Both the position numbers and the translations under genes were made by a program. Below are positions 3,684 through 38,348 of a stretch of DNA of 64,000 nucleotides, in pieces. Under the pieces are notes generated by a model. That model had not been told where the DNA came from. It did not search any database and saw only the letters and a program-made list of their open reading frames with translations. The stretch lies in assembly GCA_000004985.1 (NCBI GenBank), contig GG738909.1. The stretch is one strand, 5' to 3'. Position 1 is the first letter of the stretch. Each line of letters opens with the position of its first letter. The stretch comes from Naegleria gruberi (taxonomy: Eukaryota).

Positions 3684-4835
3684 ATGGGAAGCGCAATCTC
3701 TCATCAACCGACAAGTAAGGAAGATAAGAAGATTAAAAAGAAGGTTAAAAAGAAGAAACAAAAGGATGTAAGTATTTTACTTTTGGAAATTTGGAAAATC
3801 ATAATTAAATAGCTTCAAAAATCATTAGAAGCCTCACTTGGAAATCTTGTTTCACCCGAGGAAATTACTCAATTTTTTAATTTATATTCATCTCCGAAAC
3901 TATTGGAGGAATGTTTCTTTGATTTTGAAACATTATATGAAAAGCTATTGGATAATAATGGAGAGGTGAGAAAACTCAAAGTTAATCTAGCTGTTATCAA
4001 TATTCAAAAGTGGTGTGAGAGTCGATTAAAAACGAGACTTGTTGCCAATGTATTACGAGTTACAGAGAGAAAGAAATTGGGATTTGGTTTGGTTCATGTT
4101 GCAATTCTGTTGGGACAATACATTATTCATTGGTTTGATGACGGATTGGTTCATCTGACTCCTATTAAATCCTCACATCCAAATCTTGCTGTTGAAGTTG
4201 GAGAGCTGGATATTGAAGAAAAAAAGGATCAGGAGAAGATTAAACAATTATGCTTTGTGATTTCAGAATATAACACCAAGATGGTGTATAATAATAGGAA
4301 TTGTAATTGTCATCATTTTGTTAGAGATTGCATCAGTGCATTGGATTTGAATTTCTCTTCAATAATGAAAGGACAACTTGGAAATTATCTAAGGAGAATA
4401 AGAAATGGAAAATTACTTACAGAAAGAGAATTCTGTAATCCTATCACTCAAGAAAGAGTGCTGTTTAATACTCACAAACAATTAGATGAATATGTGATCG
4501 ATCTGTTAACAAAACACCCATCTTTCAAAGAAGAGCATCCCTATGATTTTGAGTTATTGAAAGCGTTTGATAGAGGATTCTGGATGGGACATCTCAAAGA
4601 CAAACATGAAAAACTCAAACAAGCAGAAGGACTTCATTATACGTGGAATGAAATATTTCTTCCTCTCATCAAACAAGAAGAGAAAGAGGAAATTGAAAAA
4701 CTTCCTGATGTTGAGGAAACTGCTGAAACTGAAACAATTGTATGCTCTTCTTTTGTGCATTCCATAATTTTTCATGAAAATTATGTCTGTCCATTTGGAG
4801 ATCCACATACTGTTGGATGCTTTTTAGATGTCTAA
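3684..4835 (+). CDS. N-myristoylated PPPDE/DeSI-like putative cysteine peptidase with a C-terminal CPFGDP module (paralogue P1). Exons: 3684..3767 and 3813..4835.
   Basis: The first exon starts at an ATG (MGSAISHQPTSKEDKKIKKK..., an MGxxxS myristoylation consensus) and ends at a GTAAGT donor at 3768. A 45-bp intron ends in TAG at 3812. The second exon is in frame with track ORF 3903..4835. It carries the motifs HVAILLGQYIIHWFDDG and NNRNCNCHHF, in the His...NCNHF arrangement typical of PPPDE/DeSI papain-like peptidases. Total length 1107 nt (368 aa). Confidence 0.65.
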
Positions 4836-6829: not shown

Positions 6830-8192
6830 TTATTCATCATCTTCGTCTTCTACATCAGAACTGGTGTCTTCATATCCACAAACGGTTTCATATTGTTCAT
6901 ATTCAAGAATTAAATCTTCGAAATTCCACTCAGCCTCATCCATTTCCATTTCGTCCATTCCTTCATTAAGGAAGTGTGAAAGATATGCCTTTCTTTTTAA
7001 TTGGTTTTTAAATGTGTCTCTAATTCTTTTGAAAGCCTGAGTTATGAAAGTAGCATTTGAAATCATTGAAGCAGAGCTGTTGAATTTACAGACAGGTGAA
7101 ATTGTTTCACATAAGGATGTATGAATACTGCTATGTATCCATTTGGAGAATTGAGATTCATTCTGTATTTTGATTTTTCCAGCACATTCTTCTATCATTG
7201 AAATATTCGAAATGGTACCTCTATAACAAATATTGCTAGTCAAGTATTTACCTTGTTGTGAATTGAGAGTAAGGAGATTATTTGATGAATCAAACAGATT
7301 TCTGGTTAAGGTTTCCAGAGTCGACTTGATTCCATTTTTCACATTCACTTCCATTTGTGATCTAGATATTGAGAAAAAGTGAAGCCTAGGATACGTAACC
7401 AGATTTGTTGCCAATTTTCTGTATGAAGAATTAAGACTCTGAGAAAATCTAAAAGGACTCGTGTACTCACACACCGATTGTGCTATTAAATCATTCAAAT
7501 TCTCATAGCCACAACTCTCCAGTTTAACTTCCTTCCTACAATACTGTTCCAAAGCCTGATTATCAAATAAAGTAACAAAAGTTGAAGCCAATAATGATTG
7601 AACTGAAAGTACAGAATTATAATAGGAAAGGGATCTACCTCCAAAACATTCTTCTGATGGCAAAACTGAAGTTGTGCCTATAAACTTTGATGGATAATCA
7701 TCAGAGAGGTGAGTAAGAATTTTTGAACCGAGTCCTGATCCAGATCCACCAATTATTGAATGAAAAACCTGAAATCCATCCAAGTAATCACATTGTTCAA
7801 TTCTCCTTCTTACTTGATCCATAATTTTCGGCTCAAGTAAGGATCCATCAGTGTAATATCCATTTCCAAATGAATTTCCATTCCCACAATTACCAAAGGT
7901 TGCAAACTTTGATTCCAATAACTTCTCATTAGACAGCAGTATCGAATTGATTGCCTCACTCTCCAAATCAGCTCATCACCACTCTCGGCACAAATTTACC
8001 ATCCTCTTTCTCATGAAGGAAAATATTACAATGTTCTTCAGCTATAGCTTTTAATTGATCGGATGAGGTTGCTGAATCAATCTTCTCTCCTGTAAATATA
8101 TTGAGGTGATGTTCCCTCATTAAATGTTTCCAAAATGATGACCCGATTCTATTACCACATCCTCCTATACAAATACTAACAATATCTTTCAT
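6830..8192 (-). CDS. Divergent tubulin-family protein whose reading frame is interrupted near 7967-7971 (possible pseudogene or sequence error)
   Basis: The N-terminal ORF (ATG at 8192..8190) reads MKDIVSICIGGCGNRIGSSFW...GKFVPRVVMS and stops at TGA 7970..7968. The next frame continues ADLESEAINS...GGSGSGLGSKILTHLSDDYP...EGMDEMEMDEAEWNFEDLILEYEQYE. This aligns collinearly with tubulin: the GGCGN P-loop region, the GGTGSG signature and the acidic C-terminal tail. Removing a single nucleotide at agc|tga restores VVM(S/A)DLESE, which matches PRA(I/V)LVDLEP. Confidence 0.7.
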
Positions 8193-8829
8193 CAATTTTT
8201 GTTGTTAAGGTAATTTTTAAATAATTTGTATCTTAACTCTTTAAGATCTCGGCGTCTGTGTAATTACTGTGTTACTACCTGTATTCCCTTGTGTTCCTCT
8301 ATCCAACCAATCACCTAATATTCGAATTTAAAGGTGTTGCATTAGGAAAGAACGTTCGTAATTATTGTGCTCGGCATGGAAGAATACAGGAAAGAACCTA
8401 GTTACAATTGCATTAGTTTTGTACATATTTTCTGAACTGTTTCTTCAGTACAATCACCATCGCGTAGAGTTATTTAGAAAAATCAAATCCTTATTAGAAT
8501 CTAGATTACAAGCAGCTTGTAATTCTTCATTAAAATGTAATTTCTCAGTTTCATCCATCAACACTAGTCCCAACTGAATAAACTTCACATTTTAATATTA
8601 GATGATATTGTAGCGTTATTGTTCCCTCACTTTACCATCACAAAGGCTTTCTCATCAAGACACCTCAATCCATCATCGCGCCTCAATTTATAAAAAAAAA
8701 GAAACAACACCTTATACATTACTACCTTGTAGATAAGAGGTTTAGTAGTAGTAGTTGATTATAAGACTATTTGAATAGTAAATTAAATAATTACCGGGTA
8801 TTTTAAAGTGATTATAAGAAGGTTGAGTG

Positions 8830-10921
8830 ATGGGAAATCTTAGTTCAAGTCGATTGACTGAGTTTGATTCTGCTCAAACTCAGCAGCCCCAACCTCCAAA
8901 TACCAATAATAGAAAGAGTGATGCGAGTAAGAAAAAAGACTTGACGCCTGATACTATTGTTCTAGGAAAGATTGAGGCTAGCAAATTAATTTCATCTAAA
9001 TTTAAGAAACAATCGGAAAAGGAAGCTTTTGCTAGACAACTGGCATTTGAAGATGAATTGAAACGAAATTTCCTCAATATGGAATTCGTACAACAATATC
9101 TAGAGCGAGAATACTATAGAAAACAACAGGATTTAAATTCATTGAATAGAGCTAGAATGTATCAGAGAGCTTCATCAATACCTGGGATAAGTGTGTCACC
9201 TCCTATTGTTCCTACCACTTCCCGAGGATCAGAAGCAGAAGCATCAGAATCAACTGGAGATGCAGATCAGGATGATGATGAGGAAGTTGAGCCAACTGTT
9301 GTAGCAAAAGCAACAAATTTGTATAGAGCTTTTAGAAAATCAATTGGAAGGTCTATTGGTTCTGAAGCTTCTTCTAGTCAAGATATATTCTCAAATCCGG
9401 CTGGACCTTATACTATAGATACTTTCTCTGCAGGCAATACCTTGACAGTTGGTGATGTCAATAATATTCTTTCCAGTGAAACTAAGCAAGAACAGGAATT
9501 AGATCCAATGCAAGATATTACATTCAAAATCAAATTGATTTTGGTGGATACTTTGAAGAGTGACACTCAAAAGAATATGAGACAATTCATTTCTCCAATT
9601 TTGGCAAAGATGGACAAGTTACCAAACCATGGTATTTTCCATTCTTCTATTAGTTTTGGACCATGGATTTTAGAATTTACAGACTGCGGTCTGTGTATTC
9701 CAAGAAAAATAACGAGTAAGATGGCTCTTCTCTCAATAGACATTAGTGAAATTAAGGGTTGGGATAACATTCAACAAGCTGTAAATAGAATTGCAAAAGT
9801 AGTCTGCAGATATAACACTCAAGTCACCTATTCTAGAAGTAGTACTAGAAGAGATTCGGTTATTTTTTCAAGTCCATCATCCCAATTAGCAATTGAAGGG
9901 CAAAGAAGATATTCTGATGCCCTATACGGATCCCCATATGGTACTCCAACAACTCCTGATTGTGTTTGTTTGAGTCCTCCAATTGGTGGTAGTGCTACTC
10001 TGACAGCTGTAGCTCAAACATTCGGTTCAGGATCTTCATCAGGTCTTGGTGCTGATTCAGGTAAATCAAATAATGGTGAAAGGTTTAGTCATTCTTTCCA
10101 TTCTCAGCACTCAGCACAAAATAAGGATCCTAAAACAAATGGAAACTGTCAAGATTTTGGTAAGTGAATTATCATTTTAGAATATTTTCTATATTTTCTA
10201 TATAGTTGATGAAATCTTGGATAATCTTGAAGCAACACCGGTATTTTCAGAATCTATGCATCAATTCCTTCGAAATTTGAGAAATAAGGGTGACAGTAAT
10301 CTTACTATTAAATTGGATGATCAATTTTTACAAAAGTTTGGTTTGGAGAATAATTCCTTTAATAATATCAAGGAAATGCTCACTCCAAAAAACCCTCTCA
10401 GCAGTGAGGTTAAATCTGTTCACTCAGTCCCAGATAATATGCTGACTACAGAAGCAGTGCAGCAGACATCAAGGAAAAGAAGTAAGAGTGAAGGTGTTCC
10501 ACGAGAAGTTGAAACTAATCCAATGGCATTCATTGAAATTCAAAATTATTGCATTACTTTCAACACCCATGAACAATTGGATTTGTTTGTAAATTTGTTG
10601 CTCACCAAAGATCCAATCTTTCCACGTACCAATCCACAAACCTATGAATTACTAAAGGCGTTTGATAGAGCTTTCTGGATTAAGTACAAATCAGCCCTCC
10701 TGTACAAACCAAATAACTTTAATCACAACCACCAACATGACCCACAACTTGAAATATTATCCTGGGCTCCTCTAAATATGCAATCCAAGACAATAGAAAT
10801 TGCAAGCAATTTAATGATTTGGAATGGAGAGAGAAAAAGAGTTCCGATAAATCAAAACCAACAATTGGGATGTCCTTTTGGTGATCCATTTTCCACAATG
10901 TCCTTCATTCACATTGAATAA
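8830..10921 (+). CDS. N-myristoylated paralogue of the PPPDE-like protein with a degenerate catalytic site (P2). Exons: 8830..10159 and 10206..10921.
   Basis: The ATG at 8830 gives MGNLSSS (MGxxxS). Exon 1 ends at G|GTAAGT (10160); the 46-bp intron ends at tatag (10205). The total of 2046 nt is in frame (681 aa). A central block, HSSISFGPWILEFTDCGLCIPRKI...YNTQVTYSRSS, aligns with the P1 block HVAILLGQYIIHWFDDGLVHLTP...YNTKMVYNNRNCNCHHF but lacks the Cys-His. The C-terminus shares THEQLD..LLTK.P...YELLKAFDRAFW and the terminal CPFGDP with P1. Confidence 0.65.
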
Positions 10922-11027
10922 TAAATCATTATCGTCATGCAAAATAATATTAAACACAAATCATTATTGCATTATTATAATTCATAAAAAAGTCTGTGCC
11001 ATTTTTTTCCTTTAAATAACTCATTTA

Positions 11028-13293
11028 TTAATATTTAACCTTCTTATTTGGAGGTGCTAATTGGTTATTTCTTTGAGGAGGATCATGGTGATGCCTATTG
11101 TCACGATGATAATTATTGGAATGACCTGAACCAGTTGAGCCATGATGTGAGCTACTAGAGTGGTGATGTGATGATTGGTGATGGTGGTGACTATTATGAT
11201 GTGAGCTACCATTATGGTGAGAGGAGCTAGTGTTCGAATGATGACTGCTATGGTGTGACGATTGATGATGGTGAGAGGGATTATAGGAATGTCTGTTACC
11301 ATTACTACTACCAAATGGTGGATGAGAGGATGATGTAGATGAAACACCATAGCTCTGATTAATATTGTGTGGCAACTGTTGGACACTGGTAGAACCTGGT
11401 AATTGATGTGAAGGTGCATTTGGTTTGTTATCACCCTTCTTTCTTGTAAGGAATTCATTAGTAGCTGTTGAAGGAAGATTTTTGAGTTTGATATTGGTTG
11501 TGGAACCCTTTTCCCAGAACCAGTCGTGATTTAAGCATTCATTGGTTGTTAATCGTTTGGCAGGATTAAGCACAAGAAGCTTATCAAGTAAATCTAAAAC
11601 CTTCTTTGAGCATGATTTCAAGTTTGCAAATCTTTCCAAGAGTCTTCTCTTCTTTGATTCTTTTGGTTTAAGAGCATTCCAATGAGCAAGATTTTCAACC
11701 TCAGCCCATTCTTCCGTTGAAGGAGTACCACACCATTCAAATATCTTTTCAAGCTGATTCACATCATCTGAACCAGGAAAGAGTGCTTTTGGTTCCTTTT
11801 CACCAGCAAAAGGTAAAAGCATTTCACCAAGAATACATCCCACTGACCACATATCAACAGCATAATCATAAGTTGTTGCTCCTAACAGTAATTCAGGTGG
11901 ACGATACCAACGAGTTACAACTCTATTAGTATATTCTTGTTTGTTTTTCTGTGCAATTCTTGATAAACCACTAACAAGTGTCATTGGTCATTGTTTAAAT
12001 GGTAAGGTGTTGAGCGGCAGGAAATAGGAGAGTATGATTTAAAAAAAATAATTGTTGGTTGAAATGGTTCAAACAATATGGATTTGATATTGTTATAATT
12101 AAAAATTGAAATTCAAACTTACAAATCGGCAAGCTTCAAAGTACCATCCTTCTTGATGAGAACATTTGATGCCTTTAAATCTCTGTGCATAATATCTCGA
12201 GAATGGCAGCAATGAAGAGCATTTAGGAGTTGATACATGATAGAACGAAGTTCGTCTTCATCGAATCTGTGTCCTTTAGCATTCAATCCTGCCAAATCAT
12301 GATCCACGTATTCAAAAACCAGGAAGAAGGTACCTTTTGAATTCCACGTAACATCAAGCAATTTTACAATGTTTTTATGTTCAATTTCCTTCAAAATTCT
12401 AATTTCACGAATGGATGTGATTGGAAAACCTTCCTTCTCTCTTTGTGGATCAATTCTAATCTTTTTAATAGCTACCAAACTGTTATCACGCTTATCAACA
12501 GCTTTGAATACTTCACCATAAGTGCCTTCTCCTACTTTACCTTCACTATTGTAGTAGGTATCAATACTAATGTTATTATAAAGTTAGATGATGATGATAA
12601 AACAGATTGAACAGAAAAACGTTAGCGAACATGTTGAGACAAAAAGAACACTTACTCTTTTTCAATATGTTGAAACCTTTCAGCGAGTGGATTTCTAGGA
12701 GGATTTGGTCTAGTAAAGTTATTGTTGTTAGGTTTAATAGTTGTAGTATTATTATTATTATTTTGTACACGTGTTGTTGTATTATCGGTTGGATGAGGCT
12801 TTTGAGTACCATTTAAAACTACTGGAGGAGGTGGAGGATGAGAAGATGAATCCTTTGTTGTTGTAGTTGTTGTTGTTGGTGGAGGAGGTCTTCTTTCTCC
12901 ATTCTGAGTAGATGATGATGTATTATTTGATGATGATGATGTACTATTGTGATGAGTGGTACTATTATTGCTTCTGTGGTGATGATACGAAGAGTTACTA
13001 CTGCTGCTAGCGTTAGAATTACTGCTAGAAGAATGATGTTTACTAGAGTGATAGTTATTTGTAGAATTACCACCTGATGATGTAGATCCATTTGCAGAGG
13101 AGTTATAGTTATTATAATTACTTCTTCCACCACTGTGTCGTCTCTCTCGGTTATCTACATCGTCTCGAGACCTTCTATCATTATAGTCACCATGATAATT
13201 TCTTCTGGAGTGATTGCTCTCCTTATTGTTGTGATCATCAAAAGTGCTTCTGCCTCTATCCTCTTCCATTTGCAATGATTTGTTATTGTTCAT
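11028..13293 (-). CDS. Cyclin-dependent kinase of the transcriptional CDK9/11/12 class, with an RS/low-complexity N-terminus and a His-rich C-terminal tail. Exons: 12656..13293, 12123..12566 and 11028..11970.
   Basis: Exon 1 (ATG at 13293, MNNNKSLQMEEDRG...) ends ...IEK GA|GTAAGT. Exon 2 begins after an AG at about 12567 (DIDTYYNSEGKVGEGTYGEVFKAVDK...PITSIREIRILKEIEHKNIV...HRDLKASNVLIKKDGTLKLAD(F)). Its donor is TT|GTAAGT at 12122, and a 152-bp intron ends in TTAG at 11971. Joining the exons reconstitutes the DFG motif (ADFGLSR), followed by VTRWYRPPELLLG...DMWSVGCILGEM. The total of 2025 nt is in frame. The 12656 boundary is +/-1 because of a T-run discrepancy. Confidence 0.85.
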
Positions 13294-14659
13294 TTTCTTC
13301 TTTTCCGTCAACAAAAACTGGGTGATAATTTTTGGAGGAAAAAACAGAGGGATGGTTGGGATATTTTTTAAGGCTCTTGTCGCCACGCGTTTTACAATAA
13401 ATGAACGTCTAATTTTAGAGCGGTTTTTATCAAAGGCTGGAAAAAAATACTCAACAACAATTGTGATTCTCGGAATGGTTTAAATAATACATCATCAGGA
13501 AGGTGAAACATCATATTCCCAACAATGATAATGGCACTTTCAATTCCCTTTCATTTAAATGGTTGTTGGTTCTCCTAAAGATGGTTTCCTGGAAAATGTT
13601 TGTAACGAGTGCAATGATATCCACGAAAGATAATAAGTGAGTTGTGACTTATTTCGAACGATGTAATTTATGAAATTTTATCATTTCATCATGATGATTT
13701 TAAATTTATTGTAATGAATTGTGCATTGGTTTCAAAACAGTGGTTCAATGCTATCAACATGTCATCTTTCCGTTAAATGTAAAGGCGAAGGAATAACTGG
13801 TCCATATTACAAAATATTATAATGTGTAACATTTACATGATTGCAAAATTGATTTGTAGTATGGAAATGTGAAAATTTTTATAGAGAAGAGAAATTTGGA
13901 GGATTATTTTGATGGAAAGTGCTTGTTCTTATTCTCAAAGATATGTTACATTACAATCCAGACAAAAGGCCATCTTGTAATCCAAGACATATTAAAAAGT
14001 GTATTTTATTAAGGATATATTCATGGATTGACTACATTATCTCACCAATACTATTTTGAATGATTCATTCAAGAGCTCTATAACAAAACGCTGGGCTATT
14101 TTATCTGAAAAGTTGTGCTTAACCGAAACCAGAAAAGCCCTAATATATTTCAAAGGTTCAAGACACTGAATTGTATCCCATCTGTTTTGGATGTGAAGCA
14201 TCTTCTCTGAAAAGGAAGAAACGTCTTGTCTAATATTATTATCCATTTAAATATTTTGATGAAAGTCTAATTTACTCTGAATTAAGTTCAGTTTATAGAT
14301 TCATTTCTGTATTCAGTCCATTTACTATGGCAGCAATTTTGATTTGAAATTTTAAGGGTTTTCCCAATTCTGTTGAAAACAACCTATCCGTTCTAGTAAT
14401 TTTGATGGGAGAATTACCATGCAATAAGATATTGTTCAATAAATTCATATATTAAAAATTCATCAATTATTAATTTCAAATCAAAACAAAATTCAACCGA
14501 AACAAACAATATTTTATTGAATCACCCAATCAAATAGATAACACAAGCAAAATAAATAATTTTGACCGATTTGCCCACATCAAAAGCGAATATTTTTTAT
14601 TCAATCAAAACGATAACCGCAGACTTTGTAATTTTGCTGAAAAAAAATTCTCAACAACA

Positions 14660-14947
14660 ATGTCTTCATTCAACAAACTCGCTAGAGTCTTCGTCTCCAA
14701 TCTCACTTACACTGCTAAATGGCAAGCTGTTAAGACTCACTTCTCTCAATCTGGTAACGTTACCTTCGTCAAACTCATTGTTGACCAAGCTACTCAAAAG
14801 CCAAAGGGTATGGGTGTTGTTACTTTCGAAAAGCCAGAAGAAGCCGAACACGCCATCAAGACTTTGAACGGAAGCGACTTCGAAGGTAGACAAATCAAAG
14901 TTAGAGAATATGTAGAAAGAGCTCCAAGAACTGAAGAATCACAATAA
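14660..14947 (+). CDS. Small RNA-recognition-motif (RRM) RNA-binding protein, 95 aa
   Basis: ATG at 14660 in an A-rich context. The RNP-like segments VFVSNL and KGMGVVTF are present. Strong C-ending codon bias suggests high expression. Confidence 0.65.
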   Translation: MSSFNKLARVFVSNLTYTAKWQAVKTHFSQSGNVTFVKLIVDQATQKPKGMGVVTFEKPEEAEHAIKTLNGSDFEGRQIKVREYVERAPRTEESQ

Positions 14948-15057
14948 TTAAATTTATAAAATATTAAACTAGGCTCTGTTCATCTTTTTGAATTTGAAAA
15001 TAAATTAATAGACTTTTTTTGATGAATAATATCATTAATAATAATGAAGTAATTTAT

Positions 15058-17499
15058 TTAGCTCCAAACTTCTTTCAAATATCTGCCTTCTGATTGCCAT
15101 TGTTGAACAACTTTCTTTGCTTCTTCTGATGAATAACCACATTCTTCTTCTATAATTTGATGAAGTACTCTGTTAACTTGTGTAGCCATACCTTGAGCAT
15201 CACCACAAACATATAAACAACCCTTCTTCATAATCATAATTTCAGCAATGTTAGATGAATATTCTTTGAGATAATCTTGAACATAGCTGCCTCCATACCA
15301 AACACCTCCTCCAGAGTTTGCTTCTCTACTACAAGCAACAAGTAAATTCAAGTTTACAAAACTTTCAGTTTCAAAATCTCTCAAATCATCACGATATAAA
15401 AAGTCTGATCTAATACTTCTACATCCAAAGAAGAGCCAGTTAGTACCATCAGATTGCTTCTTATCAAGTTGACATTCACGATGTTGCAAGAAAGATCTGA
15501 ATGGAACAACACCAGTACCTGGACCAATCATGATAATTGGAGTATTCAATGATTTTGGAAGTTTGAATGATGGAGATGGTTTGATAAATACTGGAATGTT
15601 GACTTGTTCTTCACTAGACCAGAACTTCTTTGCCTTATTTTGTAACCAGTGAGTACAACATCCAACACGAGTTGTACGGTGTGGAGGTGGAGTTTCGAAT
15701 TTTACAACACTGAAAGCAATATGTACTTCATCAGGGTGTTTGATTGGAGAGGATGAAATTGAGTAGAAACGTGGTTGAAGAGGTGACATTTCTTGTAACA
15801 AGTGATTCAATGGTGGTTTACATGATGGATACCAGCACAAAATGTCATATAGATTAGCTCTTTGCTTTACAATCTGGGTATTATACATATTGGTATCAAA
15901 AGTCAATTTTAACAATGCTGACTTTTCCAAAAAGTTGGTACAGTATTTGGCTAACATTTGGAGCATTGGAATAGTAACAGGTGACATGATATCTACGCGC
16001 TTAGTAAAGATTGTTCTCAATCTAATAGCTTCATCTTCACCAGCCAAGAAATGATTTGGGAATAAACACTTCTTTGATTCATCAATGCACTTGATAGAAA
16101 TCAAGTCATTTTCTCTGAGAGGTTCACTTTGAATTCCCTTCTTTCCATTTGGAACTTCATAGTGTTTCAATGAGCCAATTTCTTTCAACTTTTCCAAGAG
16201 AGCATCAACTTGGTCTTGGTCGTTTTCACAGAAAACACCCAATGAATCACCTGGCTCATATTTGAATGTGGCATCATCACTGATTGGAGCAGAGTTGATA
16301 TCAAATTCCAAGTGGAGAACTTGCTTAGAGGATTCAGTTGTGGTAAGGTAACGAGCACCATGAACGGCTGCAGAGAAAACACTAGGACATTCTGGAGCTT
16401 TCTTTTCGTTTGATTCTTCGTTTGACTCCTCGTCACAAACAGCTTCACAACAGTCTCCATACATACTCTTCAATCTATTGTTGTAATAGGTCATGTTATC
16501 AACTGGTTTGAACTTGTTATCGTTTTCTAAACGAATGATGGTCAAGTATTGATTAGCTGATGATTGAGAAGCAGAAACAAGTGAAGATAGAGCATCTAAT
16601 TGTTGTAATCCCCCAGCAGCAGAAAGCTTTCTAATTGGGGTGACATCCGTTGGCTCAGTATTTCCATTGTGTGAAGATGAAGTAATGGAGGAGCGGCCAG
16701 CACCACTCATATGATTATTATTTGGTAAATTGGATTCTTGCTTTTCTGATACAGGAGAAGGAAGGGTGGTTGGAATTGTAGGATTAACAGGGGTTGGATT
16801 GGATGGTTGAGGGATCCCTTGAGGGATACTTTGAGCACTAGATGGCTCAGAAACAGGTGGTTCAGCAATAGGATTTGCAACAGGAATATTTTCAACAACA
16901 GTAGATGTTGTTTGAGGAGTAGCGAGTGAAGCATAAATCTTTCTTAATGATTGGAATGTTTGTGCAATGAAAGGCTCTACAGCAACTTCTAAACCTACAA
17001 CTTCATCAGCTTCACCTCTATTTGAAAATCTATCAGCTCCCAATTCAGTTAATCTCTTATCAATATTTCTTGCAGCATTACAAAACATATCATAATTACT
17101 ATCACCTAAACCAAGAATAGTGTAGGAGAGATTAGAGAAAAAGTTTGCTGGTGTTGATTTTAACTTGATGAAACGATAAAAGTTATCACCATTTTGTGGG
17201 ACATCACCATTTCCTGTTGTTGAACAAATAATGATCATATTAGCTTTAGAATCCAAAATATGACCATTGGTTGTAGTTGTAGTGTTATCCATAGCTTGCA
17301 AATTATTTGAACTTGGTGATTGTTTTAAAGTTTTAGCACGATCACGAAGCTTAAAATTGACTGAAAATTCGTTTAAAGAGAGGAGTTGGGTATCTTTGGC
17401 AAATTGTTGGTCCACACATTCCTTGAAAATACGGGTTGCAATTGCTTTAGAATTACCAGTCTCCGATCCATAACAAATCAACAAGGGTTGAGATGCCAT
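15058..17499 (-). CDS. Diflavin NADPH oxidoreductase, most like methionine synthase reductase (MTRR); CPR family
   Basis: 813-aa uninterrupted ORF from ATG 17499..17497. The flavodoxin-like start is LICYGSETGNS. The segments TTGNGDVPQNGDNFY and YTILGLGDSNYDMFCNAARNIDKRLTELGADRF closely match MTRR. A long S/T/P-rich inter-domain linker is MTRR-like. The FAD/NADPH domain ends YVCGDAQGMA...GRYLKEVWS, the CPR/MTRR C-terminal signature. Confidence 0.85.
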   Translation of the reverse strand: MASQPLLICYGSETGNSKAIATRIFKECVDQQFAKDTQLLSLNEFSVNFKLRDRAKTLKQSPSSNNLQAMDNTTTTTNGHILDSKANMIIICSTTGNGDVPQNGDNFYRFIKLKSTPANFFSNLSYTILGLGDSNYDMFCNAARNIDKRLTELGADRFSNRGEADEVVGLEVAVEPFIAQTFQSLRKIYASLATPQTTSTVVENIPVANPIAEPPVSEPSSAQSIPQGIPQPSNPTPVNPTIPTTLPSPVSEKQESNLPNNNHMSGAGRSSITSSSHNGNTEPTDVTPIRKLSAAGGLQQLDALSSLVSASQSSANQYLTIIRLENDNKFKPVDNMTYYNNRLKSMYGDCCEAVCDEESNEESNEKKAPECPSVFSAAVHGARYLTTTESSKQVLHLEFDINSAPISDDATFKYEPGDSLGVFCENDQDQVDALLEKLKEIGSLKHYEVPNGKKGIQSEPLRENDLISIKCIDESKKCLFPNHFLAGEDEAIRLRTIFTKRVDIMSPVTIPMLQMLAKYCTNFLEKSALLKLTFDTNMYNTQIVKQRANLYDILCWYPSCKPPLNHLLQEMSPLQPRFYSISSSPIKHPDEVHIAFSVVKFETPPPHRTTRVGCCTHWLQNKAKKFWSSEEQVNIPVFIKPSPSFKLPKSLNTPIIMIGPGTGVVPFRSFLQHRECQLDKKQSDGTNWLFFGCRSIRSDFLYRDDLRDFETESFVNLNLLVACSREANSGGGVWYGGSYVQDYLKEYSSNIAEIMIMKKGCLYVCGDAQGMATQVNRVLHQIIEEECGYSSEEAKKVVQQWQSEGRYLKEVWS

Positions 17500-18358
17500 T
17501 ATTATTATAGTTGATATTTAGATTTTGAAAAAATCCTCTATGATGATGATGCTATTATGAGAGTCAAAATGATGACGTCTTCTTTAGATCGTTTGTTGTT
17601 GTCTTGATGAAAAGGCTAAAAGGCTTTCTTCTATTTTTGCTTTTTTTTCGTACAGTTCGGCATTTAAATTCGCTTTGATACGCATCAAAGATTTCTTGAA
17701 CAATGGACAGCGAAGTGGATTAAAGAATCCATTTACAATTCGCTTGTTACCTGAGAAATTTGAATTGTGTACGTGGCTGTCAACTGTTTACATAATATTT
17801 CAAAAAGAAGTTGTCTGGGTTATGAAGTTTCATTGAGAAGAATAACATGTTGGTCAAACTGCAATAAGTAAAAACAACAAAGATGCTCCATTCTCTCTCA
17901 CTACTAAAAAGGTTGAATATCCAGTTTAAGTTTCCCTCCTTTTGCTCTTAAATTTCATTTAACCTCAAGTTGTAAGGTATGATGGAATACAATAACAGAA
18001 TGCAAATGGATGGCAGTTCAGAATGAATCAGATTCATGCTGATTTTCGTTACAAGTCATTCGACTATTTACTGGAAACAATGATTCTGCAAAATCAATTA
18101 TGTTTGGGTTATTCATTGTATTGTCTCCATCTTCGTAATTTTACAAACTATTGCTTTAGTTCATTGATAGAACTAATATGTTATTAGTAATTGAGAAAGT
18201 CTCAAGACAAGAACTCATACATAAAGAATATTGATTCATAGCAATTATTAAGTATTTAATAAGGCAATTTTTACAAAAATGATATCTACAATTTTTTATT
18301 GGCTTAGTTTTTCTGTTGTAAGGGAAAAGTTAATGGTCAATTAATATTGATCAAAATC

Positions 18359-19050
18359 TCAATTACTTACTTGGATTGGCAAGAAAAGTCTGAACTCATC
18401 TGGAAGATCAGATTCTGAATACAGTCTGTCGGAGAAGTAAATTCTTCTAATTCTACAGTTGGCATGGATTTGAACTCTTAATGTCTCTATATAATTTGTT
18501 CCGTAAGCTCTTCTCGTAAAGTCGGCAAGATTGAACTGAATTTGATTCCAACCTTCATCCAAACGCATTGGCATTGTACAAATAAATGGTTTCACTCTTG
18601 TTGTACTCTGATAGTTCGATGCTCTAAATCTTCTTTTAATATTTTTATCATCCAAAACTTGAACTTCGAAAGTAAAATACTTTTTCAACTAATTATTGTT
18701 GATGTATCCTTATTCATCATCCGATTCTTACTTACATTTTTAATAACCATGACAAGGAAAGGTAATTTGATTCCTAGAGTTTTCTTTGCGCTGGCTGGGC
18801 AAGTAATATATGTTGTGCTAACATTTGTCCCGATAAGTTCAAGAACAGAGGATTGAATATCTTGATCGGTAATACGTTTAATGTGTCCATTCTTTACCTG
18901 TTTGTCCCAAATTTGTAAGGGTTTACTTCTACTCAGGTAAAACAAGAACAATTTGTTGTTGTATTAAAATCATCACCCATTTGCAATTAATACATACCCT
19001 ATTGAATACAATATAGAGAGAAATCCACTTTGAAATGTATTTTTGAACAT
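18359..19050 (-). CDS. CFAP20: CFAP20 / Bug22 (DUF667) orthologue, 191 aa. Exons: 18998..19050, 18736..18928 and 18359..18688.
   Basis: Exon 1 (ATG 19050..19048) encodes [19 protein letters not shown] with a GTATGT donor. A 69-bp intron ends in gagtAG. Exon 2 encodes [21 protein letters not shown]...[11 protein letters not shown] with a GTAAGT donor. A 47-bp intron ends in TAG. Exon 3 encodes [54 protein letters not shown]...[27 protein letters not shown]. The protein is near-identical over its length to metazoan/algal CFAP20 as recalled. The total of 576 nt is in frame. Confidence 0.9.
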
Positions 19051-20032
19051 TTTTTTCTATTTTGTTTTTCCCTCAGTAACGAAAATACAGTAGATTTTAG
19101 TTGTAATTTAAAATTTGGCGGGAAGTCAAAAAGAAACGTTAACCACCACAAAATTTACGAAAACCATTGAGTGAAGTCTTACGCTAGAAAATTTACAAAT
19201 AATTGTAAATATTCATTACTCTCTTAATACTTGAGAAGTTTAATTTTAAATATTTCACTTGATTGTGTGTAGGTATTCACACCACTACTTTTCATCTAAA
19301 TGGTGCTTAGTAAATCATCTTCTCTTTCAATGTTGTTTACCTGCTCTAACTGACAAATTCAAAGAAGAGACCAATTGAATTTGGTTTAACCACGACCTCC
19401 ACTAAAACTCCAGATTACACTGCGAATAATCTTTTGAATTCAATTGATTTCTATTACAAAATAAGTGAGAGATGATAATAAAACATTCAAATTTATAATT
19501 TAAATGATTTCAAATTGTTTGAATCGAAATTGTTTCCAACAAACATCCTTGTGTAAATTTCAATATTACCTTCCTTCAATTTGAGAGTGATATTTCTCCA
19601 AGAGTTTAAATTATTAGAGTTGCTTTTCCTTGATGTAGACTTCTGCAAATTTCTCGATAATTCTTTCTTTTGCTAACATGAATTCAGCAGCTTTGGCTGT
19701 TAAAGTTTCCGATTCCTTTCTCTTTCTATATTCATCTATTTAATTATCATCAATTATTTAATTATTTAATAAATATTATCATGCAAATGAACATTTACCA
19801 TCCAATCCAATAAATAAATTATTATTTAATAATCATCACAAGAATTAAAACACGTACAAAATCCAGTTTTTACCATGAAAACTTCCATTGAAAATCCGAC
19901 ACCAAAAAAGAATGGAACAATATACATGACATCATTCATTATTGATTTCTTTCCGATTTGTGCTTTTTGCAAGACAAAACTAACCAAATGAAGTGGCTTT
20001 GCAGAGTAATAAATAATCTTTTCAAGCATTTT

Positions 20033-21331
20033 TTATAATTTTTGTTTTTTGTTTGGTGATTCATAGGCAGAAGAGGATGCTTCACCTTGATTGGAATTCG
20101 AATTGAGCATGTGATGGAAGGGACATACTCTATTTGAGGAATTTGAATGATGAGTACTCGATGTGCTAATGTTGGAAGATGATGGCTCTGAATTTGCATG
20201 TTCACTACTAAGGGAAGGAGATTCGAAAGTGGCTATGATACAGTCCGTAAGGATAGTGGTTTTGGAAGTACAATGTTTGAGATTGGATTTGAGGAAAGAG
20301 TTTGATTTCCTTCTCGCAAGGTAAAATAAATAATCAAAATTTGAAAGATAATGAGAAATTTCAGTAAAACCTTTTTCAGTCAAAATATTAATTGGTGATT
20401 TTCCAAGCTTTTTGAAATTCCAATAAATATTAAAATATTAAAAACAAACCTTATTTACATAATCTTTTTGAATTCCAGCTTTCAATAATAATTTAACCAT
20501 TTCCAAATTCCCTTTTTTACACGCCTTATGAAGTGCTGTTTCTCCAGACTTTCCAAGTTAGTATCTATGAATTTAAATGGAATACATACCACATCAATTA
20601 AATTTACATTTGCATTCTTTGAGATTAAATACTTTACAATTTCAAGTTTTCCTCCATTTACAGCAAATTGCAAAGCAGAACAATTATACTATTACATGTA
20701 AGAAATAAGTGATCATCAAAATGCATACTTACTCCAAATCTGTCAATTGTGTCGACATTGAAAAACTTCACTTCCACTAATTCTTTCATCTTTTCAAGAT
20801 TTCCGTTTATGGCAGAATCAAAAAAATAGCAAATGTCACCTTGTGGTTGATCAGTATTTCTGTGATCCATTATAATATTTGCATTTGGAAGAGCATTTAC
20901 AGGTGGCCTTTCTTGAATTCCTTTAAGTAGAGATTCATAATTCTTTGGTATTCTTAATGTCCCTTTTGAAAACAATGATTTTGGCTTGTTGTTGGAAGGA
21001 TCAGTAGTGGATGCATGCATTGATGTTACAGATGAAGATGTGGTTGTTGTAGTTGTGTGATGAAAAGGACACTTATTAACTTGCTTCTCTTCCAACACAG
21101 TATTGAAGGATTATCAGAGGCAGCATGGTCATCACTGTTGGAGTTTTGGGATTCTCTGTTAATATTATTGGATACTGGCATCATGGAAGATGCATGCGGG
21201 CAGTATTGAGAGGATTCTCCCCCCACTGCACTCAACTCGCTTACATGAGAGTTTTCCTCCTGTTGTTGTTGCTGATGAAATGGACAAACAGAGAGAGCCT
21301 TCTTCTGTTCTTCCTCTGATGGTTTTTGCAT
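20033..21331 (-). CDS. Ankyrin-repeat protein carrying three CPFH(H/Q) motifs, 371 aa. Exons: 21136..21331, 20733..21088, 20590..20688, 20459..20548 and 20033..20407.
   Basis: Exons 2-5 are joined by 44-, 41- and 51-bp GT-AG introns. The donors are GTAAGT, GTATGT and GTAAAT; one intron contains TACTAAC. Joining restores canonical ANK repeats (...ALQFAVNGGKLEIVKYLISKNANVNLIDV | SGETALHKACKKGNLEMVKLLLKAGIQKDY | LGKSPINILTEKGF...). The exon 1/2 junction (a 47-bp intron, GTGATG...GGAAG) is the only frame-restoring option but is weak. The total of 1116 nt is in frame. Confidence 0.65.
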
Positions 21332-21484
21332 GTTTAAATTGAATAAAAATTAGTCGCACTATTCTCTACTAACAAAGCTATAACAAAACAAATATTCGAA
21401 TATTCAAAATTTTGGGAGAGAGATAATAATGACGTATGGTATTTTTTTTTGTTTTGAAATAAGCGAGGAGTTATTCAGTTAATC

Positions 21485-21524
21485 GAGGACAAAACAGAAT
21501 AACTGAATTCACTGTTTTGTCCTC
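21485..21524. other. Perfect 13-bp inverted repeat (GAGGACAAAACAG / CTGTTTTGTCCTC) with a 14-nt loop, in the intergenic region between two minus-strand genes
   Basis: Seen directly in the sequence; a T9 run lies about 40 bp upstream. Confidence 0.3.
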
Positions 21525-21580
21525 CATTTACTACGAAGGTTGTGATTTGTGAAGGAAAGAATGTGTTTGTTCTAGAGACC

Positions 21581-22468
21581 TTAAACAAAAAGTGGCGATT
21601 TATAGTCATGTATTTGAAGTAAATCTCTCTCGTGGGAGTTTTGAGAGGCGTTCAGTTTGCTTTTAAATGCTTTAACATTGCTTTGGAATGACGATGGAGA
21701 TTTACAAAAAATGTTTGGAGAACTGAGACTTGATTCAAAGACTGGTTTCAGTTTTGTTCTGTTTGGACTAAGTGTTTCAACCTTAACTGCAGATGGTCTC
21801 TTTTTACAATGTGCAGGAGGAGAATTAACTCTAAAGTCAAGGAAGGAAGCAGAGTAGGACTTGGCAAATTGTGGTCTTGGTGGTGTTGATGGGGAAGATG
21901 GAATTGAATTGCTATTGGTAACTGTTATGGAATAATGACTTGTTGTTTCAGCATGGTCAATGGAATTAAAATCCACAGAGTGAATTTGGAAAGGTGAAGA
22001 AGGCATTGAAATGGATTTTGGTGTTTTACATTCTGTAATGTTGTTTTTAGCCTCTGCAGCCAAGCTTGATGATCGTCTTCTTTTAAGATTATCATAATTA
22101 TCAAATGAAGCCAAAAGAGAAAGTGGAATTCTGGTTCCTTTTTTCAACATTTCTTTTCTATGCGAAAGATCAGGACCACAGTTATCTTTAGAGTTGATTT
22201 CAAAATGCTTTGGTGGAGAGGATTGTATGAAAGTGTCATTCTTATGGTGGTAGGAAGAAGTATTTGGTGAGGTGGGGCTCATTAAACCTCCATGAATGGC
22301 ATTAAGGCGCTTATGATGTGATCTAGGGGTTGTTACTGGTGAAGAACAAGTTGAAGAGGTATTGGAATCAACTTGTGGTAATTCATCATTCTTCCATAGA
22401 GAATGAAATCTTGGAGGACTAGTCGATCCGATGATCTCTGCTTGGAAATATAATGTCGATTGATCCAT
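21581..22468 (-). CDS. Hypothetical S/T/P-rich protein, 295 aa
   Basis: ORF from ATG 22468..22466 ending at 21581; low-complexity composition and no recognised domain. Confidence 0.4.
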   Translation of the reverse strand: MDQSTLYFQAEIIGSTSPPRFHSLWKNDELPQVDSNTSSTCSSPVTTPRSHHKRLNAIHGGLMSPTSPNTSSYHHKNDTFIQSSPPKHFEINSKDNCGPDLSHRKEMLKKGTRIPLSLLASFDNYDNLKRRRSSSLAAEAKNNITECKTPKSISMPSSPFQIHSVDFNSIDHAETTSHYSITVTNSNSIPSSPSTPPRPQFAKSYSASFLDFRVNSPPAHCKKRPSAVKVETLSPNRTKLKPVFESSLSSPNIFCKSPSSFQSNVKAFKSKLNASQNSHERDLLQIHDYKSPLFV

Positions 22469-23207
22469 ATTAATAATGAAACTGTTGTTTGTTGGTGAAG
22501 ATTCTGCAAAATTGTTTTATCTCTCAAAGATCTTTTAAAAGAAGATTAAAGAGTGGTGGATTAAGGAAGTGCTTTGTTTTACAACCGAATTCTGAAGTCT
22601 AGAAGGAAGAATACTCAAGTTGCAAATATAAAGAAAAGAGGTAGGGAGGAATGTAAATCGATTTTTTAAGATGAAGATGTTCAATAAGATACGCATGAGA
22701 TTGAGAGTTGAAAGCGTGGTTTCCCTCCTGTTCAAGAATACATCAACATCAAGGCGCCATCAATTAACCTCCTTGTTACTGTAATGAACATGCTTGTTGA
22801 TTGTGACTCAACCAATCGGAGACGCTTGAAGATGCTGATGCGTCCTTAATAGTAAACATGTACCAAAATGAATGCTTAACATGTGGCTCACTTCAACAAG
22901 TAGTCGTTGGAAGAACCTTAATACGTCTAACACTATCAAATTGGTATGTTTTTGCAAATAAGGATATTATCTTTGCATATACAATCATTGAAAGTATGGA
23001 AAATCAAACCAAACATTTCAAAAAATTTATATACAACAATTCAACAGCTTAATTAAGGTGTACCTGTTAATTTCTTCTCCTCCTGCACTTTTCCTCGCAC
23101 TCTCATATGAATTGTTATCTTCCACATATCATCCATGTATTGATAGTTCATTCACTGTTTGTCCCGATAGAATAATCAGTCAAAAATCCAACTTTATAAA
23201 CACAGCA

Positions 23208-26095: not shown

Positions 26096-26267
26096 TTTTT
26101 TTGACTCTTCGATTGCCAGGTCAGACAAGTGACATACACTAATGTAATTGTACGTTTATTACTATTCTTAAACTATTGATGATGAATTGAGAGACTAATG
26201 GATTCCAACTTATCATAACTCATTGATGAACTTGTATTTACAATTTATTTTCGAACTTTTAATTCAT

Positions 26268-28919: not shown

Positions 28920-29064
28920 TTTTTTTGAGTTCAATTATTACATTGAAAGTTTAATCTTTAAATAGCTATTATTGCGATAAGGCGATTGTTGAATATTATG
29001 TACAGTTTGATGAGAACAAATAGTAAATATTAATTATTATTAAATAATATATTTTTTTACTTGT

Positions 29065-29922: not shown

Positions 29923-30633
29923 CTTTTGTATATGATGATGGTGTGATTAATATTCGGCAAATAGCAAGGCAACAAAAAGCACCGTGATGATGAGAATATT
30001 TTTTCAAGTCAAAAAAAATTTACAAAATATTTTTTATTTTATTTTTAAAAATGTTTGCTTCAAGATTCTTCGCATCATAAACAAGGTGGTTGAGAAGAGA
30101 ACAATGGAAGCAATCTGAGTTTTACATTTAATTTTGGCTCATGAAAGAAAGAATTAATAGAAGTAATTTTGGTGATTGAATTCAACAGAGAAGTTATTTT
30201 CTTCAATGAAGATTAGAAAGCCTAATGATGAATAATTAATATATATTCTTAATTTAGGCAATGAGGTTGTATCTTGGTAATCAAGATTAATGAACCAATT
30301 CATTCTTAAAGAAATATTAAGGGATTAATAACAAAAGGTTGATGATAATGGATTTTAGAAAGCTACCATATGATATTGTGAATTATTGAATGAAACACCA
30401 AGTCGAGATGAGCCTTTGTTCCACTTCATGAATTTCAGCATATTACCCATCAGAATAAATCGGAGCAATCTTACCAACCATTTTACCATCATGCTGATTA
30501 TAATAACAGCCCAAACTCGATTCTTGTTAATCTAATGATGAGAAGTATGATGGAAGATGATAATCAGAATCACATAAACGAACACCTCACCGAGAATCAA
30601 GTAGAAAAAGGCTTTGAAAATTGTTTGTAAAAA

Positions 30634-33062: not shown

Positions 33063-33092
33063 TTGTAGTGTACTTTATTATAATACAGCTAT

Positions 33093-38171: not shown

Positions 38172-38245
38172 ATTAATTTGAAATATTAAAACAACAATTT
38201 CATATCAATAATTATTTATATGAAATTGGAAATAAAAAGTTAATG

Positions 38246-38348
38246 AGATGAGGTTGGTTTCGATCCAACGTCCATGGGGCATCCGTGTAACCTGTAAGAG
38301 ATTAACACGTTTGGAGGTCCATGCTCTCCCTCTGAGCTACTCACCCCA
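38246..38348 (-). tRNA. Aberrant tRNA-like locus: Trp-type anticodon loop (CUCCAAA), initiator-like T-loop (AUCGAAA) and an insertion of about 40 nt; possibly a pseudogene or intron-containing gene
   Basis: On the minus strand the locus reads GGGTGAG-TA-GCTC-AGAGGGA-GAGC-A-TGGAC-CTCCAAA... then 45 nt ...GTTGG-ATCGAAA-CCAAC-CTCATCT-C. The acceptor stems pair with G-U wobbles, and a T5 run follows. No GTCCA 3' anticodon-stem strand can be found. The heptamer CATGGAC occurs twice. Confidence 0.4.

What the first reader, a model, noticed from the sequence alone, without database searches (positions are those of the whole stretch)
6830..8192. Divergent tubulin gene with a one-nucleotide frame disruption
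All tubulin landmarks are present and collinear, but the frame changes by +1 exactly at ...VPRVVM|S*/ADLESE... (the TGA at 7970..7968). Possible explanations: a recent pseudogene, an assembly indel, or recoding. The protein is also far more divergent than a canonical alpha/beta/gamma tubulin: GGCGNR instead of GQCGNQ, and GGSGSGLGS.
Basis: seen in the sequence. Interest (0 to 1): 0.5.

Follow-up and report, generated by a model that had tools for sequence, protein, structure and literature searches.

The report
Frame-broken divergent Naegleria beta-tubulin paralogue
This is a fast-evolving extra beta-tubulin gene of the amoeba Naegleria gruberi whose reading frame is broken by one extra base, which the public annotation hides behind an invented intron; it is most likely a freshly disabled copy or a draft-sequence error, not a new decoding mechanism.

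Summary
The window is Naegleria gruberi NEG-M DNA. On the minus strand, 8192..7971 (74 codons) and 7972..6833 (380 codons) together encode a complete, collinear beta-tubulin-like protein. Four bases (AGCT, 7973..7970) stand where one codon belongs.

The public model XP_002671050.1 bridges the break with a 55-nt "intron" (7979..7925). That intron is almost certainly an artefact:
- its donor (GTGATG) does not match the window's donor consensus;
- its composition is coding-like;
- it encodes, in frame with exon 2, strand S2 and helix H2, including invariant Asp and Leu residues.

An intact paralogue, XP_002670724.1 (52% identical), reads KFVPRVVMADLE across the site, so A7973 is the likely extra base. 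GGCGNR and GGSGSGLGS are shared by the pair.

No closer relative appeared in the searches run. The broken copy changed conserved beta-tubulin positions 45 times against 16 in the paralogue. It carries no other lesion, so any neutral phase must be very short.

I found no support for recoding beyond the stop codon at the site. No independent reads of the locus were reachable, so a real young null allele (favoured, about 0.5) and a base-call error (about 0.35) cannot be separated. Ordinary; low interest.

The parts
7971..8192 (-). 5' reading frame (frame 0): codons 1-74, MKDIVSICIGGCGNRIG...GKFVPRVVMS. Holds the start codon and the T1 loop.
   Evidence: Pfam Tubulin matches profile positions 2-49 (E = 2.6e-09).
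8148..8165 (-). T1-loop motif GGCGNR, in place of the canonical GQCGNQ.
   Evidence: Read directly. The same motif is in the intact paralogue P0002.
7973..7973 (-). Most likely supernumerary base (A). Removing it gives ATG GCT GAT = M-A-D.
   Evidence: With A7973 removed, KFVPRVVMADLE is identical over 12 residues to XP_002670724.1. T7970 is an equally frame-restoring alternative and would give M-S-D.
7968..7970 (-). TGA that ends frame 0 immediately after the junction.
7973..7978 (-). TGA TGA in frame +1, closing that frame immediately upstream of the junction.
   Evidence: Only 2.5% of simulated single-base insertions in this gene leave a stretch open in both frames of 3 nt or less.
6830..7972 (-). 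3' reading frame (frame +1): ADLESEAINS...DEDDE plus TAA. Holds the rest of the GTPase domain and the Tubulin_C domain.
   Evidence: Pfam Tubulin matches profile positions 53-189 and Tubulin_C positions 1-125.
7724..7750 (-). T4-loop motif GGSGSGLGS (canonical GGGTGSGMGT).
   Evidence: Identical in paralogue P0002.
7925..7979 (-). The 55-nt "intron" of the public model XP_002671050.1 / EFC38306.1. Judged an annotation artefact that bridges the frameshift.
   Evidence: Splicing it out reproduces P0001 exactly. Its donor is GTGATG, against GTRAGT at real introns. Its GC is 0.44 against 0.17-0.30 for the shortest GTRAGT-donor introns (that script's acceptor choice is approximate, and longer candidates reached 0.41). 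It encodes ADLESEAINSILLSNE in the exon-2 frame, including invariant D75 and L76 and most of strand 71-75 and helix 78-86.
8193..8528 (.). Upstream intergenic stretch ending at a synteny breakpoint against an independent contig from a near-identical N. gruberi-like genome.
   Evidence: L073 (ENA ERZ929261) matches window 8528..11607 at 98.6%. Its other 1920 nt carry two unrelated ORFs instead of the tubulin gene.

Best explanation
The locus is a lineage-specific, rapidly evolving beta-tubulin paralogue of Naegleria gruberi, one of the highly divergent "bonus" beta-tubulins of the NEG-M genome.

Its coding sequence carries a single supernumerary base, most likely A7973. Standard decoding therefore ends after 74 codons at TGA 7970..7968 and cannot make a tubulin.

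The gene was kept open by selection for nearly all of its history, under weaker constraint than its sister copy. The break is a very recent real mutation in the sequenced strain: a nascent pseudogene, or a null allele on one haplotype of this heterozygous organism.

The 55-nt intron in the public model is a gene-prediction device that restores the frame by deleting 18 conserved residues. It is not a real splicing event.

Shown:
- the identity of the gene and the position and size of the break;
- the artefactual look of the intron;
- the accelerated evolution of this copy;
- the absence of any second lesion.

Inferred: that the extra base is in the DNA of the organism rather than only in the assembly.
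For: - Organism and gene: the top hit is XP_002671050.1 "beta-tubulin [Naegleria gruberi]", and the spliced window sequence reproduces it exactly.
- Beta-tubulin nature.
- Extra base: the paralogue XP_002670724.1 reads straight through with KFVPRVVMADLE.
- Intron artefact: non-consensus donor and coding-like composition. The only intron checked against an annotation is 10160..10205 (GTAAGT..TAG), whose spliced product equals XP_002671013.1 exactly. The "intron" covers invariant D75 and L76 and confidently modelled strand 71-75 and helix 78-86.
- Relaxed constraint: at columns conserved in at least 9 of 10 canonical beta-tubulins, this copy alone changed 45 and the paralogue alone changed 16 (binomial p = 2.6e-4).
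- Lineage restriction: none of the searches run found a relative closer than generic beta-tubulin. The profile search of 1.84e9 representatives at 50% identity drops from 884 to 488 bits. Metagenome scans give 37% identity or less over full-length matches.
- Recency: under neutral drift only 14% of simulated runs stay free of in-frame stops at 5% amino-acid divergence, and 0 of 400 at 20%.
- Real frame-breaking variation exists in this genome. The GATA gene at 34231..33093 is split by an extra AA at 33751..33750. That AA is absent from an independent contig that is 98.97% identical, where the 378-aa ORF is intact.
- The strain is heterozygous, with haplotype scaffolds in the assembly (PMC9928731).
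- The tubulin sits next to a synteny break and is absent from the matching independent contig, which fits a dispensable, variable locus.
Against: - No independent read, assembly or transcript of this exact site could be obtained, so the base itself is unverified.
- A single lesion in an otherwise perfect 453-codon gene is also what a base-call error looks like.
- The extra base is not in a homopolymer or repeat, where natural one-base insertions usually arise.
- Faster evolution of this copy could reflect a new function rather than decay.
- The one other frame break in the window lies in a CAA repeat and is a 2-nt length change, so it is not a close precedent.
Confidence: 0.5

Rival explanations
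1. Base-call or consensus error in the 2010 draft assembly. The organism's gene is intact (ATG GCT GAT) and encodes a full-length divergent beta-tubulin. The extra A exists only in the database record, and the annotators' intron compensates for it.
For: - There is exactly one lesion. All 452 other codons are open, and the junction becomes identical to the paralogue over 12 residues once A7973 is dropped.
- The open reading frame has clearly been maintained by selection.
- The record is a draft genome of a heterozygous strain in which haplotypes were partly collapsed and partly assembled apart (PMC9081340 calls it a draft).
Against: - The context ATGAGCTGAT is not a homopolymer.
- The site is in the interior of a 250-kb scaffold.
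- My pairing of adjacent open frames of at least 70 codons plus inspection of 34303..33093 turned up only one other frame break in the 64 kb. That one is a 2-nt repeat-length difference, which looks like real variation.
- The copy shows long-term relaxed constraint, which raises the prior for real loss.
Confidence: 0.35
2. Programmed +1 ribosomal frameshifting. The ribosome decodes AGC (Ser), stalls on the 0-frame UGA, skips U7970 and continues with GAU (Asp), as in antizyme (UCC-UGA-U) or RF2. This yields full-length tubulin with Ser74.
For: - A 0-frame stop lies exactly at the shift site, and frame +1 is closed immediately upstream. A stretch open in both frames this short arises in only 2.5% of simulated random insertions.
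- UGA-U followed by reading GAU gives the same Ser-Asp product as the antizyme site (my own knowledge of that system).
Against: - The 94 nt from the shift site fold no better than shuffles (z = +0.59).
- No Rfam frameshift element matches.
- AGC is not a known shift-prone P-site codon (my knowledge).
- The nearest paralogue is in frame with Ala at this position.
- No orthologue was available to show conservation.
- The other frame break in the window is a polymorphic mutation, not a recoding site.
- The 2.5% figure is post hoc.
Confidence: 0.03
3. The annotated 55-nt intron (7979..7925) is real. The mature mRNA encodes the 435-aa protein XP_002671050.1, which lacks 18 residues.
For: It has GT..AG boundaries and restores the frame. 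Its length is within the range of short introns seen in the window. A TCTAAT lies near the 3' end.
Against: - The donor GTGATG differs from the GTRAGT found at ORF-ending introns. GTGATG occurs 59 times in the window as an ordinary hexamer.
- The acceptor is GAG.
- GC is 0.44, against 0.34 for the CDS and 0.17-0.30 for the shortest candidate introns (approximate).
- In the exon-2 frame the segment reads ADLESEAINSILLSNE. It aligns residue for residue with the paralogue and with all beta-tubulins, including invariant D75 and L76.
- Removing it deletes most of strand 71-75 and helix 78-86 of the nucleotide-binding fold.
Confidence: 0.04

Closest known systems
XP_002670724.1 / EFC37980.1, "beta-tubulin" of N. 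gruberi NEG-M (P0002), the sister paralogue
   Same: - 52-53% identical over the full length.
- Same unusual T1 (GGCGNR) and T4 (IIGGSGSGLGS) loops, and the same LNSSYRKL and NISMIEE blocks.
- Identical KFVPRVVMADLE across the break.
- The two are each other's closest relative, above generic beta-tubulins, in the searches run.
   Different: - The paralogue is a single uninterrupted protein in the database and is less diverged (43-46% against 34-37% identity to canonical beta-tubulin).
- The window copy has a 7-residue longer H1-S2 loop, a different acidic tail and the one-base frame break.
Canonical eukaryotic beta-tubulin (for example PDB 4ffb_B, 5w3f_B)
   Same: End-to-end collinear. It has the Tubulin and Tubulin_C domains, its predicted fold matches at TM 0.88-0.95, and it has a beta-type T7 region (RK, no alpha-type Glu).
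   Different: - Only 34-37% identical.
- GQCGNQ is replaced by GGCGNR, and GGGTGSG by IGGSGSG.
- 45 uniquely changed positions that are otherwise conserved, many of them in H11-H12.
- The frame is broken.
Naegleria mitotic beta-tubulins (JGI 55748 and 55900; Velle et al. 2022, PMC9036621)
   Same: Divergent beta-tubulin paralogues of the same organism, additional to the flagellar set.
   Different: [quoted passage not shown]
- This gene is far more diverged, no orthologue was found, and its expression is unknown.
- It belongs instead to the five "bonus" highly divergent beta-tubulins mentioned by Fulton 2022 (PMC9081340). That assignment is by exclusion; no gene identifier was matched.
Antizyme / RF2-type +1 programmed frameshift sites
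   Same: The required shift is +1, with a 0-frame UGA exactly at the shift position. Skipping U gives a GAU (Asp) codon, as in antizyme.
   Different: There is no shift-prone P-site codon, no stimulatory structure or Rfam element, no conservation, and no regulatory logic. The in-frame paralogue shows that the ancestral state was unshifted.

Membership tests
Tubulin/FtsZ superfamily, eukaryotic beta-tubulin | Tubulin GTPase domain plus Tubulin C-terminal domain above the curated thresholds | tested here: met
   PF00091 scores 146.1 bits (cut-off 33) and PF03953 scores 66.5 bits (cut-off 26.6) on the joined product.
Tubulin/FtsZ superfamily, eukaryotic beta-tubulin | Closest to beta rather than other tubulin classes, with a full-length tubulin fold | tested here: met
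   The best 60 PDB sequence hits are all beta chains (E as low as 6.5e-87). The top Foldseek PDB hits are the B/D (beta) chains of tubulin complexes, TM 0.88-0.95. No formal tree with alpha, gamma, delta or epsilon tubulins was built.
Tubulin/FtsZ superfamily, eukaryotic beta-tubulin | Canonical nucleotide-binding signatures GQCGNQ (T1) and GGGTGSG (T4) | tested here: not met
   GGCGNR and IGGSGSG are found instead. Both variants are shared with the intact paralogue, so they are lineage features rather than decay.
Tubulin/FtsZ superfamily, eukaryotic beta-tubulin | Uninterrupted reading frame giving a full-length protein | tested here: not met
   One supernumerary base; frame 0 stops at 7970..7968.
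Tubulin/FtsZ superfamily, eukaryotic beta-tubulin | GTP binding, heterodimer formation, polymerisation | not testable with these tools
   Needs biochemistry.
Naegleria mitotic beta-tubulins (Velle 2022) | About 57-58% identity to human beta-tubulin, with orthologues in N. fowleri and A. kona | tested here: not met
   34-37% identity to canonical beta-tubulins. No relative closer than generic beta-tubulin other than the N. gruberi paralogue.
Naegleria mitotic beta-tubulins (Velle 2022) | Transcription in dividing amoebae | not tested
   No expression data could be linked to this accession.
Spliceosomal intron (as annotated, 7979..7925) | GT..AG boundaries that restore the frame | tested here: met
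Spliceosomal intron (as annotated, 7979..7925) | Local donor consensus and intron-like composition | tested here: not met
   The donor is GTGATG, against GTRAGT at six ORF-ending donors, one of them confirmed by exact protein match. GC is 0.44 against 0.17-0.30 for the shortest candidate introns (approximate).
Spliceosomal intron (as annotated, 7979..7925) | Does not carry homologous coding sequence | tested here: not met
   It encodes ADLESEAINSILLSNE, collinear with all beta-tubulins and including invariant D75 and L76.
Programmed +1 ribosomal frameshift site | 0-frame stop or slow codon at the shift site | tested here: met
   AGC-TGA-T. Both frames are closed within 2 nt of each other.
Programmed +1 ribosomal frameshift site | Stimulatory RNA structure or a known element | tested here: not met
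   Fold z = +0.59. No relevant Rfam hit at E of 1 or below.
Programmed +1 ribosomal frameshift site | Conservation of the shift in related genes | tested here: not met
   The only close relative is in frame. Orthologues were unavailable.
Pseudogene | Disabling lesion plus signs of relaxed constraint | tested here: inconclusive
   There is one frameshift and a 45:16 excess of changes at conserved sites. There is no second lesion, and the lesion itself is unverified by independent reads.

The most novel reading that the evidence does not exclude
The extra base is real and is bypassed by an antizyme-like +1 ribosomal frameshift at AGC-UGA-U. That would make this the first recoded tubulin and the first programmed frameshift reported in a heterolobosean.
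Probability: 0.03. Interest if true: 0.7.

Novelty: already known. Interest (0 to 1): 0.18.

Why it matters
The main value is as an annotation correction. The database protein XP_002671050.1 lacks 18 conserved residues because a frameshift was papered over with an intron.

The "gaps and additions" in the highly divergent "bonus" Naegleria tubulins have been read as evidence that they cannot assemble (PMC9081340). At least this one gap is a modelling artefact.

If the extra base is real, the locus is a snapshot of a tubulin paralogue at the moment of loss, in an organism used to test the multi-tubulin hypothesis. If it is an error, N. gruberi has one more intact, very divergent beta-tubulin with altered nucleotide-binding loops that would deserve expression analysis.

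Neither outcome changes any general principle.

Tried and rejected
1. Tiny-intron explanations. I first thought of heterotrich-style 15-16-nt introns. This was rejected because conserved residues abut the junction on both sides with no spare sequence.

2. Alternative genetic codes or selenocysteine at TGA. Rejected: reading through in frame 0 gives SxFGExGNQFDTAV**, which is not tubulin.

3. Transcriptional slippage. Rejected: there is no homopolymer at the site.

4. Independent copies of the locus.
- Exact-protein look-ups for P0001, P0002 and the 74-aa ORF found nothing.
- Two metagenome scans gave only generic beta-tubulins.
- An ENA sample (ERZ929261) holds DNA that is 98.6-99% identical, but its contig next to the locus diverges 335 nt before the tubulin start.

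5. Literature. No paper or held supplement mentions the accessions, the peptide or a frameshift. The 2010 genome paper is not held.

6. dN/dS against the paralogue could not be computed, because the paralogue's DNA was not retrievable.

Caveat on negative searches: the word-indexed homology search missed an exact 193-aa match in another query. "No orthologue found" therefore rests mainly on the profile search, which covers one representative per 50%-identity cluster and lists only the best 150 by E-value. Short fragments would not have been seen.

Full report
**What is there**

The window is compact, 33% GC, standard-code eukaryotic DNA. Protein hits identify it as Naegleria gruberi NEG-M.

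On the minus strand an ATG at 8192 opens a frame reading MKDIVSICIGGCGNRIG...GKFVPRVVMS. It stops at TGA 7970..7968. The +1 frame is closed by TGA TGA at 7978..7973, then runs from GCT 7972 as ADLESEAINS...DEDDE to TAA 6832..6830.

The two open frames overlap by only two bases. The junction is ATG-AGCT-GAT: four bases where one codon is expected.

The joined 453-residue product has the following properties:
- It carries Pfam Tubulin and Tubulin_C well above threshold.
- It aligns end to end, and without a gap across the junction, to beta-tubulins of known structure (4ffb_B, E = 6.5e-87).
- It gives an AlphaFold model of pLDDT 85.8 and pTM 0.88.
- The model's best structural matches are beta-tubulin chains at TM 0.88-0.95.

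**How the public record treats it**

The top database hit is XP_002671050.1 / EFC38306.1, "beta-tubulin [Naegleria gruberi]", 435 aa, on a 250,472-bp scaffold. It reads ...GKFVPRV|KLLESKF....

Removing 7979..7925 (55 nt, GTGATG...AATGAG) from the window sequence reproduces that protein exactly. So the annotation bridges the frameshift with an intron.

Four things argue that this intron is not real:
- **Donor.** Introns in this window that end long open frames start with GTAAGT or GTGAGT. GTAAGT occurs only 21 times on both strands, and five of those sit at the end of an open frame of at least 100 codons. One such intron, 10160..10205, is confirmed: its spliced product equals XP_002671013.1 exactly. 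GTGATG is an ordinary hexamer seen 59 times.
- **Composition.** Its GC content is 0.44. That is higher than the gene itself (0.34) and well above the 0.17-0.30 of the shortest GTRAGT-donor introns. That script picks acceptors crudely, and longer candidates reached 0.41.
- **Content.** In the frame of the downstream exon it encodes ADLESEAINSILLSNE. This aligns position for position with the sister paralogue and with 64 other beta-tubulins. Asp75 and Leu76 are invariant and Glu77 nearly so.
- **Structure.** In the model it removes most of strand 71-75 and helix 78-86, both confidently predicted.

**Relatives**

The closest relative is another N. gruberi protein, XP_002670724.1 (441 aa, 52-53% identical). 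It is uninterrupted and reads KFVPRVVMADLE across the site.

Dropping A7973 makes the two genes identical over those twelve residues, so A7973 is the most likely extra base. Skipping T7970 would give Ser instead of Ala.

They are lineage features.

No closer relative turned up in the searches run:
- Searches with either protein return only generic beta-tubulins below the pair.
- A profile search of 1.84 billion cluster representatives (one per 50%-identity cluster) falls from 884 bits for the pair's cluster to 488 bits.
- Two metagenome scans give nothing above 37% identity over full-length matches, and no locus is closer to the pair than to a canonical beta-tubulin.

The gene is not one of the two mitotic beta-tubulins of Velle et al. 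[quoted passage not shown] By exclusion it is one of the five "bonus" highly divergent beta-tubulins mentioned by Fulton (PMC9081340). No paper or held supplement mentions the accession or a frameshift.

**History of the copy**

I compared both paralogues against ten canonical beta-tubulins, at columns conserved in at least nine of the ten. The window copy alone has changed 45 positions and the paralogue alone 16 (p = 2.6e-4). This copy has therefore evolved under weaker or different constraint.

Yet it has no second lesion. When the repaired coding sequence is drifted neutrally, results are as follows:

| Amino-acid divergence | Runs with no in-frame stop |
|---|---|
| 5% | 14% (56 of 400) |
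| 10% | 2.75% (11 of 400) |
| 20% | 0 of 400 |

Indels are not counted in that simulation. The reading frame was therefore maintained by selection for almost all of the roughly 48% divergence from its sister. Whatever the break is, it is very recent or not real.

**Recoding**

The one suggestive feature is that frame 0 stops exactly at the shift and frame +1 is closed just upstream. Only 2.5% of simulated single-base insertions in this gene leave so short a doubly open stretch. AGC-UGA-U read as Ser then GAU resembles the antizyme site (my own knowledge).

Against it:
- There is no downstream structure (z = +0.59).
- No Rfam element matches.
- The P-site codon is not known to be shift-prone.
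- The paralogue is in frame.
- The statistic is post hoc.

I give recoding about 3%.

**Real mutation or sequencing error**

No independent read of the site was reachable. Indirect evidence came from chasing a second oddity.

The GATA zinc-finger gene at 34231..33093 is also split between two frames. Its N. lovaniensis homologue spans both halves. An ENA contig (ERZ929261, 5661 bp) that is 98.97% identical to window 35550..29970 carries the intact 378-aa ORF. The window has an extra AA at 33751..33750 inside a CAA repeat. The public N. gruberi model is the truncated 193-aa form. That looks like real frame-breaking variation.

The NEG-M assembly also contains a 44,786-bp scaffold with allelic copies of two genes of this window, one 100% and one roughly 97% identical. 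This fits a heterozygous diploid (PMC9928731).

A second contig of the same ENA sample matches window 8528..11607 at 98.6%. To the left of a sharp breakpoint, 335 nt upstream of the tubulin start, it carries two unrelated ORFs instead of the tubulin gene. The tubulin paralogue thus lies at the edge of a segment that is not collinear between near-identical genomes, unless one of the two assemblies is chimeric at that point.

Taken together, these points tilt me towards a real, very young null allele or nascent pseudogene (about 0.5) over a base-call error (about 0.35):
- relaxed constraint on this copy;
- lineage restriction;
- a variable neighbourhood;
- demonstrated real frame-breaking variation in the same window.

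The tilt is modest. A single lesion in a non-repetitive context within an otherwise perfect gene is also what an error looks like.

**Verdict**

This is a known, annotated gene of a known family, with an ordinary explanation. The useful output is the correction of the gene model and a precise, cheap test: counting reads at 7973. Interest is low.

Noticed in passing
window 33093..34231 (minus strand), break at 33751..33750: A second frame-broken gene. A GATA zinc-finger protein is split between two frames by an extra AA inside a CAA repeat. The public model XP_002671057.1 is the truncated 193-aa form. An independent ENA contig (L072, 98.97% identical) has the intact 378-aa ORF, and the N. lovaniensis homologue spans both halves.
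   Followed up: yes
window ~8528; locus L073 1..1920: There is a sharp synteny breakpoint 335 nt upstream of the tubulin start. An ENA contig from a near-identical N. gruberi-like genome matches window 8528..11607 at 98.6%. To the left of the breakpoint it carries two unrelated ORFs (300 aa on the plus strand, 241 aa on the minus strand, no Pfam match) instead of the tubulin gene. This is a structural variant, or a chimeric contig in one of the two assemblies.
   Followed up: partly
window ~10500..63000 (genes 8830..10921 and 61484..62998): The NEG-M assembly holds a separate 44,786-bp scaffold with near-identical copies of two genes in this window. EFC35987 equals the C-terminus of XP_002671013 at 100%. 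EFC35984 is roughly 97% identical (by eye) to XP_002671021, with small indels in low-complexity runs. This is probably an alternative-haplotype scaffold.
   Followed up: partly
window 10160..10205, 31878, 56080, 44445, 23854, 18370, 18735, 12655, 12122, 37177: Short AT-rich introns with GTAAGT or GTGAGT donors sit exactly at the ends of long open frames. The one at 10160..10205 (46 nt, ending TAG) is confirmed by an exact match of the spliced product to XP_002671013.1.
   Followed up: partly
window 3903..4835 and 8830..10921 (plus strand): The genes on either side of the TPR and tubulin pair are distant paralogues (31% identity over 137 aa, E = 5e-14, shared NTHxQLD...LLKAFDRxFW...CPFGDP block). 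No Pfam domain was found in either.
   Followed up: partly
window 41951..42023, 46311..46391, 46991..47063, 51163..51233: Four tRNA genes lie within about 9 kb: Gln-TTG twice, Ser-TGA and Asp-GTC.
   Followed up: no
protein P0077 (another N. gruberi "beta-tubulin", 439 aa), not in the window: This third divergent N. gruberi beta-tubulin model lacks the whole N-terminal T1-loop region and starts with unrelated sequence. It may be another mis-modelled or decaying "bonus" tubulin.
   Followed up: no
tool behaviour: The word-indexed protein search did not return an exact 193-aa database match (P0385) to the first half of the query. Negative results from that tool should not be read as proof of absence.
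   Followed up: partly
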